Of a DNA stretch of 64,000 nucleotides, positions 27,001-30,000 are shown piece by piece. Location: assembly GCF_017348835.2 (NCBI RefSeq), contig NZ_CP071375.1, one strand, 5' to 3'. The position numbers were made by a program. Position 1 is the first letter of the stretch. The number at the start of each line of letters is the position of its first letter. This DNA is from Escherichia coli. Lineage in GTDB: Bacteria > Pseudomonadota > Gammaproteobacteria > Enterobacterales > Enterobacteriaceae.

Positions 27001-30000
27001 CCCATAGCCAGCCAAAGCAGCCTGGCACAATTGATAAGCCGACTAACGTCCAGAGATGGGCGGTTAACAATGGTGAGCCTGCATCTTTCGCCATGAGCGG
27101 CAGGTAAGTCGCGACGATGATATAACCAAATCCCGCCAGGCCGTACAGAATAGCCAGTAACCACCAGCTCATTATCTGTTGCTCCGTTTTTGCCAATGGC
27201 ATTGGTGCGATGGCGTGTTTTTTCGAGGGCATTAAAAGCGTAAGTGCAATCAGCATCATGCCAGAAAGCGCCCCGGCGCCTTGCCATAACGTTTGCGAGG
27301 ATAAGGCAAAATGCAGGCCTGCCAGAACATATTCGTTGCCCAGTGCAATGCCAATGCCAACGCCAGAAAACAAAGCTGCCAGCACAAAAGGATGGCGCGT
27401 GTGCTGCATAATCAGCGTCGAACCAAAAATCAGCATACCGGCGCTGGCGACACCCGCCAGGAAGCGAATCAATAACACCAGAATAAATGGCGGCAACCAT
27501 GCCATTGCGAGGATCAACAACCCGCTCGCCAGGGCAGAAACCAACAGAAATGGGCGCAGGCGCGACGGCTGGTGAAATGCGCCAAACGAAAATAGCAGAC
27601 TGCCAGCCAGATACCCCGCATAGTTGCCGCTGGCAATCCACGAGAGCTGGCTAAATGAAAACGCCCCTTCCGCCATCATGACGGGCAACATAGGCGTATA
27701 AAGGAAGCGACCTAATCCCATACCTAAGGTCAGAACCAGCATCCCGAAAAGCGCGGTGCTGAAAGAAAAGCGTTCTACGGGATGCGAGGACGAAGGCATG
27801 TTTAACCTTGTATGTCATTTTTGTTGTTAACAAGTTAATAACAAAAAGGTGAAATATGCCAGCCTGTTAATGCGATGATTTAGGGGTAAAGCGATAAAAA
27901 CGATTTGGTTCGCTAACGATATAAATATTACCAGAGGCATCCATCGCAATCCCTTCGGCCTGTTTGATGTTATGCGACAAACCTCGACTACCTTTGGTTA
28001 GTGATATTTCACCGATAACCTCGCCAACCAGGGTTACTTCCTGGAGTGCGCGAGATTCATGAGACAGCACCAGAAGCGTATTTTTTTGCTGGTTAAATTC
28101 TGCGCCGGACACATCATCTAAAGTAAATTGCCGTTGTAGTGCCTCGTCTTTGCTGATGTGTAATTCATTGCTACTTAACAGCCCGTTAACTTTGTAGACC
28201 TCAATCGGATTTTTCTCTTTAAAAAACCAGAAAGTGTGATCCTGGCGAGAATAAGCCAACCCTTCAAAACCGCAATTGGTTGGGGAGTCTTGCAGCGGGA
28301 TTTTTATTTTTTTGAGGATTTTTACTTCCGAGTTTGGGGTCAGTGAAATCACATAAATGGCGTAATCGCGCTCATCGCTAATGACAAACTGATTATCGCC
28401 AATGTATTCGATCGTCTCGAGATCCTTAACAAAATCCAGAGGAATTGTGCGGATAAAATCACCATTGGTGGTCATTTCAACAATGGCGGCAGGTTTGTTG
28501 ATAGTGCTAAAAAGAGTATTGCTTTGTGCCGACCAGGTCAGCGAAGAGATATTATTCGTTATGCCTGCAATTTCTTTGCCGTCAATGGTGGCGTGGTAAT
28601 TCTGAAATGATGCTGCATGATTGCTTTTACGGGCGCAAGATTGCACGAAGAAAGTACACACTGCCACAATGGCAAAAAGAATCACAATAACGGAGATGCG
28701 TTTACTTAACGAAATACTTTTTGTCACGGTAATCCCTTTAAGGCAAATCAATAAGATATCGAGAAGTATACGTAGCGACCTTAATGAATCCTTAACGCGG
28801 AGAAACCCCGTAATGTGCAATGCAGCGCCAGACACCATCCTGCTGGCAATAAATTGACTCAGTCTGCCCAGGGATCACCCATTGTATTTCCTCGCCGGGG
28901 GGACAGGTCAGCCAAATGCATAACCCGCAGCCGCCGCGTAAATCACGGGGAATATCGCTGACGCGAAAAGTCATGCCCGCTGCCTGCAACGCCTTGCGGG
29001 TTTGTATGACGCCGACCGTGGAGTGAAATAAAAATAAAAACTCTTTCATCGGCGTGTCCTCACTCGTTGACCAATTACCGCCGCGCCAATTGCGCCAGCA
29101 AATTGCGCATCAGGATGGGTATTTACCGGCATTCCCAGGTGAGATTCCAGCATCCGGGCAAACGTCTGGCAATGACTAACGCCACCAGTAAACAGAATCG
29201 GCGCTTCACAGGAGAGACGAGCAATGAAATTGGCACTCCTCCGCGCCATCGCGTTAATCACTCCGGCGAGAATCGCTTCTGGCGCGACGCCCGCTGAGCG
29301 CAGGCTGATCACTTCTGATTCGGCAAACACTGTGCACATACTCGTGATGGCATGCGGCGTGACATTTTCGGTAATGCTGTCGAGTTGCTCGACGCTGGTG
29401 CCAAGCGTGCGCGAGATCACCTCCAGGAAACGCCCGGTGCCCGCCGCGCATTTGTCATTCATCAGGAAATCGCACAGGTTACCGTCATCATCAAGCTGAA
29501 TCACTTTGCTGTCCTGACCACCGATGTCGATTACCGCGCGCGTTGCTGGCGCAAGAAACCGTGCGCCCAGCCCGTGACAGGAGATTTCCGTCACTTGTTT
29601 ATCGGCAAAATCCACCAGTTGCCGTCCGTAGCCGGTGAGCGTCAGAAACGGCGTTGTCTCTAACCCTTCGCGCAGAGTTTCCCAGGCTTCAGTAATTGCT
29701 GTTGCCGGGCGAAAGGGGGTTGGAACGAGGAAACGGCGCGTAATCACGCCGTCTGCCAGTAAGATCCCTTTGGTGGCGGTAGAACCAGAATCAATGCCAA
29801 TCGAATATGTCACTGCCACTCCTTACAGCATCTCAATAAAGGCCGCGACACGGGTACTGAGCTGCCCGACATCCGAGGTGGAGTAGTCTGTTTCAATAGC
29901 GATATAAGGAATGTTGTGCTGCTGGCGCACATGACGTTTAATCGCCAGCGATTCCACCGCGTAGGTATGGCACGCCTGCAAAATCACATCAACAACGCCA

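What the first reader, a model, noticed from the sequence alone, without database searches (positions are those of the whole stretch)
28728..29049. Unannotated-looking small ORF (85 aa, CxxC) translationally coupled to yjiL
An 85-aa ORF exactly fills the gap between yjiL and yjiK; its ATG overlaps the yjiL stop (ATGA), typical of co-translated operon partners. It contains a GGCGLC motif. If real it is a third component of the yjiL/yjiM radical-enzyme-like module.
Basis: inference. Interest (0 to 1): 0.4.

Follow-up and report, generated by a model that had tools for sequence, protein, structure and literature searches.

The report
ytiA: small partner of YjiM reductase
The 85-codon ORF is a real gene, already annotated in E. 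coli as ytiA (a DUF3343 "putative Se/S carrier" protein). It travels with the YjiM/YjiL ATP-driven iron-sulfur reductase in several bacterial phyla, which hints that this enzyme of unknown function handles selenium or sulfur.

Summary
The ORF is real. It lies on the minus strand at 28792-29049, is 85 aa long, and its ATG overlaps the yjiL stop as ATGA. It is not unannotated: RefSeq calls it ytiA ("DUF3343 domain-containing / putative Se/S carrier protein"), including in a K-12 MG1655 derivative. It matches Pfam PF11823 (49 bits, cut-off 25) and is under purifying selection (dN/dS 0.05-0.30).

The cassette yjiM-yjiL-ytiA keeps its spacing in Citrobacter, Klebsiella, Atlantibacter and two deeper relatives, while the flanking genes differ. 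YjiM is a double-cubane [8Fe-9S] reductase (DCCP) and YjiL is its ATP-dependent electron donor.

In 80 diverse DCCP loci, 18 carry a DUF3343 gene and 12 have it directly adjacent, in three different gene orders. Of the 80 loci, 34 carry Se/S-trafficking genes (SelD, TusA/YedF-like, Sec-lyase-like, YedE).

Only Cys41 is invariant; the CxxC is lineage-specific. The predicted fold is a generic ferredoxin/PII-like sandwich with Cys41 on the β2-β3 loop.

Best reading: YtiA is a single-cysteine S/Se carrier that works with YjiM/YjiL. The gene and its family are already known. The DCCP link is an under-explored lead that can be tested.

The parts
28792..29049 (-). ytiA coding sequence (85 aa + stop); Pfam PF11823 Se_S_carrier / DUF3343
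29046..29049 (-). ATGA overlap of the ytiA start with the yjiL stop (translational coupling); the same 4-nt overlap is seen in O157:H7, Citrobacter, Atlantibacter, Klebsiella and L092
29057..29063 (-). Shine-Dalgarno-like GTGAGGA inside the 3' end of yjiL, 7 nt before the ytiA ATG
   Evidence: read from the sequence
28918..28935 (-). GGCGLC motif (residues 39-44). Cys41 (28927-28929) is invariant in the family and Gly42 nearly so. Cys44 (28918-28920) is conserved only in enterobacterial and some other members
28728..28791 (-). 64-nt spacer between the ytiA stop and the annotated yjiK GTG start; no terminator-like site lies between ytiA and yjiK
29046..29813 (-). yjiL: ATP-dependent [4Fe-4S] activase/'archerase' (BcrAD_BadFG; TIGR00241 364 bits), with Cys in NDKCAAGTG and SMCTVFAESE
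29823..30974 (-). yjiM: double-cubane [8Fe-9S] cluster reductase (HGD-D; NF040772 532 bits against cut-off 350; E=6e-75 to PDB 6ENO)
27867..28727 (-). yjiK (SdiA-regulated domain), the downstream neighbour. It is not part of the cassette: espX6 separates it from ytiA in O157:H7, and it is absent downstream of the cassette in other genera

Best explanation
Shown. ytiA is a genuine gene, already annotated, for an 85-aa cytoplasmic protein of Pfam family PF11823 (DUF3343, 'putative Se/S carrier'). It is the last gene of a conserved three-gene cassette, yjiM-yjiL-ytiA, and its start overlaps the yjiL stop (ATGA). YjiM is a double-cubane [8Fe-9S] cluster reductase (DCCP). YjiL is the ATP-hydrolysing [4Fe-4S] protein that drives low-potential electrons into it. 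The gene is conserved under purifying selection, belongs to the family, stays linked to its two partners, and DUF3343 genes lie next to DCCP genes in several phyla.

Predicted. YtiA folds as a small ferredoxin/PII-like alpha/beta sandwich. Its only invariant functional residue, Cys41, sits on the beta2-beta3 loop.

Inferred. YtiA is a single-cysteine carrier that holds a sulfur or selenium species on Cys41, as a persulfide or perselenide. It either presents this to the ATP-driven reductase YjiM/YjiL for reduction to sulfide or selenide, or receives the product from it. This would feed SelD-type selenium use, or sulfur use, under anaerobiosis. The carrier chemistry, a physical contact with YjiM or YjiL, and the choice of Se over S are all inferences.

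Rough probabilities: real gene 0.97; functional partner of YjiM/YjiL 0.75-0.8; Cys41-based S/Se carrier mechanism about 0.4-0.5.
For: Gene and family:
- Pfam PF11823 at 49.3 bits against a cut-off of 25.
- RefSeq annotation as ytiA, present in 5385 of 5426 E. coli genomes.
- dN/dS of 0.05-0.30 between genera.

Cassette:
- HGD-D(383)-BcrAD_BadFG(255)-Se_S_carrier(81-85) keeps the same spacing and 4-nt overlap in Citrobacter, Atlantibacter and Klebsiella, with different flanking genes.
- The cassette is also present in two deeper relatives where YtiA is only 38-40% identical.
- In O157:H7, espX6 is inserted between ytiA and yjiK, but ytiA stays fused to yjiL.

DCCP linkage:
- In 80 diverse DCCP loci (965 kb), 18 have a DUF3343 ORF.
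- 12 of these are directly adjacent on the same strand, in three gene orders: DCCP-DUF-activase, DCCP-activase-DUF and DUF-DCCP-activase.
- The adjacent cases are in Tepidibacter, Clostridium ihumii, Tissierellia, Lachnospiraceae, an uncultured Firmicute and an actinomycete.
- 6 of the 9 loci with a YjiM-like second DCCP carry DUF3343.

Selenium/sulfur context:
- The same loci hold SelD in 11 loci, with 8 of 8 tested passing TIGR00476.
- They also hold TusA/YedF-like genes (19), Sec-lyase-like Aminotran_5 genes (10) and YedE (3). In total 34 of 80 loci have at least one such gene.

Literature:
- DUF3343 was proposed as a Se/S chaperone with one conserved Cys. The STRING table in that paper already lists an 'activase' and an HGD-D subunit beside DUF3343 in Slackia (PMC5322559).
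- 955 of 970 DCCPs occur in SelD-positive genomes (bioRxiv 10.1101/2022.07.06.499078).
- yjiM is induced at oxygen limitation (PMC2241611).

Structure and motif: the AF2 model has pLDDT 92 with Cys41 on the beta2-beta3 loop. Cys41 is invariant across 41 diverse homologues.
Against: - No direct evidence that YtiA is made. No ribosome-profiling or proteomics record was found.
- 62 of 80 DCCP loci have no DUF3343 within 7 kb, including the closest relative of the characterised C. hydrogenoformans enzyme (L009).
- That enzyme works in vitro as a two-component system and was crystallised as one (PMC7317905, PMC9351452). YtiA is therefore not an obligatory subunit.
- DUF3343 also occurs away from DCCP, next to YedE, TusA, Sec lyase or unrelated genes.
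- The E. coli locus has no selenium genes nearby.
- YtiA evolves much faster than its partners, and its C-terminus is variable.
- The 80 loci are the best matches to DCCP_Ch and include several congeners, so they represent only about 6-9 independent lineages.
Confidence: 0.5

Rival explanations
1. YtiA is a maturation or repair factor for the YjiM cofactor. It would deliver the extra bridging sulfide (or a selenide) needed to fuse two [4Fe-4S] cubanes into the [8Fe-9S] cluster. It would not carry the substrate or the product.
For: Cysteine-desulfurase-family genes (TIGR01977) lie directly upstream of DCCP-DUF3343-activase in Lachnospiraceae. A HesB/IscA-type Fe-S_biosyn gene follows DUF3343 in Desulfosporosinus. 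Haft and Gwadz raise a Se-bridged cluster as a formal possibility.
Against: Most DCCP loci lack DUF3343 (62 of 80). DUF3343 is also common next to YedE, TusA and SelD without a DCCP (PMC5322559).
Confidence: 0.15
2. YtiA is a CxxC dithiol/disulfide redox protein or metal-binding protein (thioredoxin-like or zinc-binding). This is the reading suggested by the CGLC motif.
For: C41-G-L-C44 is present in E. coli. Cys44 is conserved in at least 90% of enterobacterial orthologues, and a CGxC consensus appears in many homologues.
Against: The second Cys is Ser, Ala or Gly in many homologues, including all the Firmicute and actinomycete DCCP-adjacent ones and the cassette in L094, where the motif is CGLS. 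The model is not a thioredoxin fold, and no thioredoxin or zinc-ribbon appears among the hits listed by either structure search.
Confidence: 0.07
3. YtiA is a DUF3343 protein whose function is independent of YjiL and YjiM. The adjacency would reflect co-transfer or general clustering of anaerobic Se/S genes, not a shared reaction.
For: DUF3343 occurs in other contexts. The cassette looks horizontally mobile because its flanks differ, so the genes could be hitch-hiking together.
Against: Adjacency recurs in three gene orders across distant lineages, with start/stop overlaps. Retention over divergence down to 38% identity, with dN/dS below 1, argues for selection on the trio. In one E. coli strain ytiA (IS50R) and yjiM (internal stop) are both inactivated, though this is a single anecdote.
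Confidence: 0.1
4. The ORF is a chance open frame or a decaying pseudogene, and no functional protein is made.
For: An open frame of this length arises in about 2% of shuffles. No expression data were found. The C-terminus is variable.
Against: The Pfam match is above the gathering threshold. Cys41 and Pro34 are invariant across 41 homologues. dN/dS is 0.05-0.30. The AF2 model has pLDDT 92. A Shine-Dalgarno sequence and the ATGA coupling are present.
Confidence: 0.02

Closest known systems
Pfam PF11823 Se_S_carrier (formerly DUF3343), as described by Lin et al. 2015 (PMC5322559)
   Same: YtiA is a member. It scores above the gathering threshold, is about 80 aa long, and has the single conserved Cys-Gly. 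In other organisms, homologues sit beside YedF/TusA, Sec lyase, SelD and YedE.
   Different: The E. coli copy has none of those selenium genes nearby. It is welded to a DCCP reductase/activase pair instead. No family member has been characterised experimentally, so 'carrier' is itself a hypothesis.
TusA / YedF sulfur-carrier proteins (PF01206)
   Same: They are small cytoplasmic proteins with one essential cysteine that carry sulfur as a persulfide. They occur in the same gene neighbourhoods, with TusA-like genes in 19 of 80 DCCP loci. This is the proposed working analogy.
DCCP / DCCP-R of Carboxydothermus hydrogenoformans (PDB 6ENO, 7YYL)
   Same: YjiM and YjiL are clear homologues: E=6e-75, NF040772 equivalog and TIGR00241. 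The system is a two-component ATP-driven reductase whose physiological substrate is unknown.
   Different: The characterised system has no third protein, and its closest relative locus (L009) lacks DUF3343. YjiM lacks the N-terminal channel-closing helices ('class II', PMC7317905).
PII (GlnB/GlnK), CutA and DUF2179 ferredoxin-like small proteins
   Different: The scores are at the level of the generic fold only, and there is no sequence similarity (2-20% identity). No nucleotide-binding or trimer features were tested. This is a resemblance of shape, not membership.
2-hydroxyacyl-CoA dehydratase / benzoyl-CoA reductase systems (HgdAB+HgdC, BzdNOPQ)
   Same: The catalytic HGD-D fold and the BcrAD_BadFG activase are the same.
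   Different: YjiM scores far below the cut-offs of those equivalogs and above the DCCP cut-off. To my knowledge, no DUF3343-type small partner is described for those systems.

Membership tests
Pfam PF11823 Se_S_carrier (DUF3343) | Profile HMM score above Pfam's gathering threshold | tested here: met
   49.3 bits against a cut-off of 25, E=3.3e-13, residues 4-59 on profile positions 2-57 of 69
Pfam PF11823 Se_S_carrier (DUF3343) | Small stand-alone protein of about 70-100 aa with one highly conserved Cys (Cys-Gly) | tested here: met
   85 aa. Cys41 is invariant and Gly42 at least 90% conserved in 41 diverse homologues. The conserved Cys is noted in PMC5322559
Pfam PF11823 Se_S_carrier (DUF3343) | Genomic association with selenium genes (YedF, Sec lyase, SelD) | tested here: not met
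   None lies within about 4 kb in E. coli. The association is met in homologous DCCP loci of other phyla. Lin et al. state that the family has no Se-specific subclade
Pfam PF11823 Se_S_carrier (DUF3343) | Actual binding or transfer of S or Se on the cysteine | not testable with these tools
   No member has been characterised biochemically in the literature searched
Third component of a DCCP (YjiM) / archerase (YjiL) system | Conserved co-location and co-orientation with both partner genes across distant lineages | tested here: met
   The cassette is conserved in 5 enterobacterial-type loci with changing flanks. 12 of 80 diverse DCCP loci have DUF3343 directly adjacent, in three gene orders
Third component of a DCCP (YjiM) / archerase (YjiL) system | Universally present with DCCP (obligatory subunit) | tested here: not met
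   62 of 80 DCCP loci lack it within 7 kb. The characterised enzyme is a two-component system (PMC7317905, PMC9351452)
Third component of a DCCP (YjiM) / archerase (YjiL) system | Physical interaction with YjiM or YjiL | not testable with these tools
   The structure tool returns no inter-chain contacts or PAE, so no complex prediction was attempted
Thioredoxin-like / CxxC redox proteins | Conserved CxxC pair and thioredoxin fold | tested here: not met
   The second Cys is not conserved. The fold is ferredoxin/PII-like
TusA (PF01206) | Pfam TusA profile match and TusA fold | tested here: not met
   No PF01206 hit at E<=0.1. TusA is absent from the structural hits listed
Double-cubane cluster protein (for neighbour YjiM) | NF040772 equivalog score, and conservation of the cluster cysteines of PDB 6ENO | tested here: met
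   532 bits against a cut-off of 350. E=6e-75 to 6ENO. Nine Cys columns are invariant between DCCP_Ch and YjiM. My strict regular expression for the published spacing failed, because YjiM has x18/x18/x29/x164/x28/x32
Archerase / acyl-CoA dehydratase activase (for neighbour YjiL) | TIGR00241 domain above cut-off, and the two cluster-bridging Cys motifs | tested here: met
   364 bits against a cut-off of 125. Cys122 lies in NDKCAAGTG and Cys160 in SMCTVFAESE. Their assignment as cluster ligands rests on knowledge of HgdC, not on a test here

The most novel reading that the evidence does not exclude
DUF3343 proteins such as YtiA are the missing physiological handle on double-cubane cluster reductases. 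The DCCP/archerase pair would use ATP to reduce a carrier-bound, hard-to-reduce selenium species (Se(0), a perselenide or a selenotrisulfide) or a sulfur species to selenide or sulfide, for SelD and related pathways. The E. coli operon yjiM-yjiL-ytiA would be a minimal, genetically tractable version of that system.
Probability: 0.25. Interest if true: 0.75.

Novelty: already known. Interest (0 to 1): 0.4.

Why it matters
As a gene call it matters little, because ytiA is already in RefSeq. It matters as a lead.

The physiological substrate of double-cubane cluster reductases has been unknown since they were described in 2018 (PMC7317905, PMC9351452). How cells supply reduced selenium to SelD is also unsettled.

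The literature holds two separate observations. DUF3343 clusters with selenium genes (PMC5322559). DCCPs occur almost only in SelD-positive genomes (Haft and Gwadz preprint). The gene-neighbourhood data here join them physically: DUF3343, TusA/YedF, YedE, Sec-lyase-like and SelD genes sit beside DCCP/activase genes in many lineages.

E. coli carries the minimal three-gene version. The hypothesis can therefore be tested with standard genetics and anaerobic biochemistry.

Tried and rejected
- PDB sequence search with the YtiA profile gave nothing meaningful. The best hit was E=0.12, to a ferredoxin-type Cys motif in FwdG.
- The literature search for 'ytiA' returned mostly Bacillus ytiA (rpmE2). 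Nothing on the E. coli gene turned up.
- The supplements of one E. coli Ribo-seq paper do not mention ytiA, yjiL or yjiM.
- The search for homologous proteins with YjiM listed only relatives at 86% identity or more, which was useless for diversity. I rebuilt the DCCP_Ch sequence from the PDB alignment instead.
- Several distant DUF3343 representatives sat on contigs too short to show context.
- My simple gene caller mis-called antisense ORFs in high-GC loci (L065, L077). For those loci I relied on the HMM hit coordinates.
- A strict regular expression for the published 7-Cys spacing failed on YjiM. The alignment to 6ENO shows the cysteines are conserved with slightly different spacing.
- I considered predicting a YjiM-YtiA complex from a linked sequence. 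I dropped the idea because the tool reports no inter-chain contacts or PAE.
- I rejected the CxxC/thioredoxin-like reading and the TusA-homologue reading (see the membership tests).
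Full report
**1. The observation**

The window has an 85-codon ORF on the minus strand at 28792-29049.
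- Its ATG (29049-29047) overlaps the TGA of the upstream gene (29048-29046) as ATGA.
- An AGGA core lies 7 nt upstream.
- The protein contains GGCGLC at residues 39-44.
A 64-nt spacer remains, so the ORF does not 'exactly fill' the gap.
- No terminator-like site separates the ORF from yjiK.

ORF length alone is weak evidence. About 2% of shuffles keep an open frame of at least 85 codons from that ATG.

**2. It is a real gene, and it is already annotated**

- The protein matches Pfam PF11823 (Se_S_carrier, formerly DUF3343) at 49.3 bits against a gathering cut-off of 25.
- The DNA is present in 5385 of 5426 complete E. coli genomes.
- RefSeq labels the gene ytiA, 'DUF3343 domain-containing protein' or 'putative Se/S carrier protein', including in a K-12 MG1655 derivative.
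- Orthologues of 55-90% identity occur in Escherichia, Citrobacter, Klebsiella, Raoultella, Kosakonia, Atlantibacter and Phytobacter.
- Between genera, dN/dS is 0.05-0.30 for ytiA. It is 0.04-0.16 for yjiL and 0.03-0.08 for yjiM.

The frame is therefore under purifying selection, but ytiA is the fastest-evolving of the three genes. 'Unannotated-looking' is the part of the finding that fails.

**3. The neighbours**

- YjiM is an HGD-D protein. It hits the NCBIfam equivalog NF040772 'double-cubane-cluster-containing anaerobic reductase' at 532 bits (cut-off 350). It aligns to the solved DCCP of Carboxydothermus (6ENO) at E=6e-75 with the cluster cysteines conserved.
- YjiL is a BcrAD_BadFG/TIGR00241 activase with the two Cys motifs of [4Fe-4S]-bridged 'archerases'.
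- Published work treats YjiM/YjiL as a class II DCCP system. [quoted passage not shown] - yjiM is induced with anaerobic genes at oxygen limitation (PMC2241611). YjiM protein has been detected by proteomics.
- I found no expression data for YtiA itself.

**4. Does ytiA belong to the yjiL/yjiM module?**

Within Enterobacteriaceae:
- The trio HGD-D(383 aa)-activase(255 aa)-Se_S_carrier(81-85 aa) keeps identical spacing and the 4-nt overlap in Citrobacter amalonaticus, Atlantibacter hermannii and Klebsiella pneumoniae.
- The genes on both sides differ between these genera.
- In O157:H7 the effector gene espX6 is inserted between ytiA and yjiK. This changes the last residues of YtiA but leaves the overlap with yjiL intact.

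Deeper relatives:
- Two loci where YtiA is only 38-40% identical to the E. coli protein still show the same three genes, again in unrelated surroundings.
- Identity to E. coli falls in the order YjiM (74-90%), YjiL (59-87%), YtiA (38-76%).

Beyond this clade, I scanned GTDB genomes with a DCCP alignment led by the Carboxydothermus sequence. I kept the best 80 loci (965 kb), from Firmicutes, Deltaproteobacteria, Actinobacteria, Chloroflexi and Bathyarchaeota.
- An HMM of 41 diverse DUF3343 proteins finds a DUF3343 ORF in 18 loci.
- In 12 loci it is directly adjacent, on the same strand as the DCCP and/or activase gene.
- Three gene orders occur. DCCP-DUF-activase is seen in Tepidibacter, Tissierellia and Lachnospiraceae. 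DCCP-activase-DUF, the E. coli order, is seen in an uncultured Firmicute. DUF-DCCP-activase is seen in an actinomycete.
- Six of the nine loci that also hold a YjiM-like second DCCP (E 1e-106 to 1e-159) carry DUF3343.
- With roughly one to a few DUF3343 genes per genome, about one hit would be expected in 1 Mb by chance.

The literature already contains one more case, unremarked. The STRING table for Slackia in Lin et al. lists an 'activase' and an HGD-D subunit beside two DUF3343 genes, YedF and a Sec lyase (PMC5322559).

The association is not universal:
- 62 of 80 DCCP loci lack DUF3343, including the nearest relative of the characterised enzyme (L009).
- DUF3343 also occurs without a DCCP.

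YtiA is therefore an accessory partner, not an obligatory subunit.

**5. The wider context points to selenium/sulfur trafficking**

Pfam and NCBIfam scans of neighbours show the following arrangements.
- Desulfosporosinus: DCCP-activase, then a Sec-lyase-like desulfurase, SelD, TusA(-DsrE), DUF3343 and a HesB-type protein.
- Lachnospiraceae: desulfurase-DCCP-DUF3343-activase.
- Two uncultured lineages: YedE-TusA-DUF3343 in the same cluster as DCCP and activase (upstream of the DCCPs in one, downstream of the activase in the other). In one of them an HdrA-like flavoprotein and MvhD lie in between.

Across the 80 loci:

| Gene type | Loci |
|---|---|
| SelD | 11 |
| TusA/YedF-like | 19 |
| Desulfurase | 10 |
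| YedE | 3 |
| DUF3343 | 18 |
| At least one of these | 34 |

All eight SelD candidates tested pass the TIGR00476 equivalog cut-off.

This fits the report that 955 of 970 DCCPs lie in SelD-positive genomes. That report does not mention DUF3343.

**6. Anatomy of the protein**

- In 41 diverse homologues only Phe8, Pro34 and Cys41 are invariant. Leu21, Gly42 and Tyr67 are nearly so.
- The second cysteine of the E. coli CGLC is conserved in enterobacteria. It is Ser, Ala or Gly elsewhere, including in every DCCP-adjacent Firmicute or actinomycete copy (CGIS/CGVS, often CCGIS) and in the L094 cassette (CGLS).
- AlphaFold2 gives a confident model (pLDDT 92) with topology beta-alpha-beta-beta-alpha-beta-beta. 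Cys41 lies at the end of the beta2-beta3 loop.
- No solved structure is related by sequence.

**7. Mechanism**

Shown:
- a real, conserved gene whose start overlaps the yjiL stop (ATGA);
- membership of PF11823;
- persistent linkage to a DCCP/archerase pair;
- recurrent co-location of that pair with DUF3343 and selenium/sulfur genes.

Inferred:
- YtiA uses Cys41 on an exposed loop to carry S or Se as a persulfide or perselenide.
- It hands this to the ATP-driven low-potential reductase, or receives the product from it.
- The open channel of class II YjiM makes a protein-borne substrate conceivable.

Rivals:
- a cofactor-maturation role, delivering the bridging S or Se;
- a CxxC redox role, disfavoured because the second Cys is not conserved;
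- an unrelated function with coincidental linkage;
- a spurious ORF, effectively excluded.

**8. Verdict**

The 'third component' and 'S/Se carrier' ideas hold up as the best reading. 'Unannotated' and 'CxxC' do not.
- The gene and its family are already known.
- The physical link between DUF3343 and double-cubane reductases is, in the literature I could search, visible only in a STRING table and is not discussed there. It offers a concrete way to test what DCCPs do.

Noticed in passing
[not shown]
   Followed up: partly
L004:3349-7074 (E. coli FCI1): In one strain ytiA is split by IS50R and yjiM carries an internal stop, so two genes of the cassette are inactivated together. This is a single case and only anecdotal.
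   Followed up: no
window 27867-28838 (-): The longest yjiK ORF (323 aa, ATG at 28838) would overlap the 3' end of ytiA by 47 nt. RefSeq uses the GTG at 28727 (286 aa), which starts with a hydrophobic signal-anchor or lipobox-like segment (..FFVQSC..). The shorter start looks right, but I did not test it.
   Followed up: no
L017, L020, L021, L023, L029, L045, L057, L062, L067, L076, L078: SelD genes lie within 7 kb of a DCCP gene in 11 of 80 loci, including Bathyarchaeota, Chloroflexi and Deltaproteobacteria. Five of the eight tested stop-to-stop SelD ORFs begin at SelD model position 12-13. This would fit an in-frame TGA (selenocysteine) at the active-site position.
   Followed up: partly
L048, L065, L071, L073, L077: Tissierellia and Lachnospiraceae loci hold two DCCP paralogues: one long class-I-like, and one 383-aa YjiM-like at 51-59% identity to E. 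coli YjiM. They hold only one activase and one DUF3343 gene. In Lachnospiraceae a TIGR01977/Sec-lyase-like desulfurase lies directly upstream.
   Followed up: partly
L026:8852-12856: Between the activase and YedE-TusA-DUF3343 lie an HdrA-like flavoprotein with ferredoxin domains and an MvhD/FlpD protein. These may form an electron-input module for the DCCP system.
   Followed up: no
L028, L035, L037, L040, L048, L065, L071, L073, L077 (DUF3343 ORFs): The DCCP-adjacent DUF3343 proteins of these Firmicute loci carry a vicinal Cys-Cys (S-K/T-C-C-G-I/M-S) instead of the enterobacterial C-G-L-C. The two other DCCP-adjacent Firmicute copies (L036, L041) have a single Cys.
   Followed up: no
L029:4902-5456 and 8100-8924: Here the DUF3343 domain sits in a 184-aa protein with a C-terminal extension. 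An FmdE-domain protein lies between the two DCCP genes.
   Followed up: no
L089:2738-2977, L091:2739-2978: Citrobacter and Klebsiella have a 79-aa DUF2164 gene just upstream of yjiM. It is absent from E. coli and Atlantibacter. The cassette's flanks differ in every genus: TIR/TPR defence-like genes in Atlantibacter, and an autotransporter in L094. This suggests a mobile three-gene unit.
   Followed up: no
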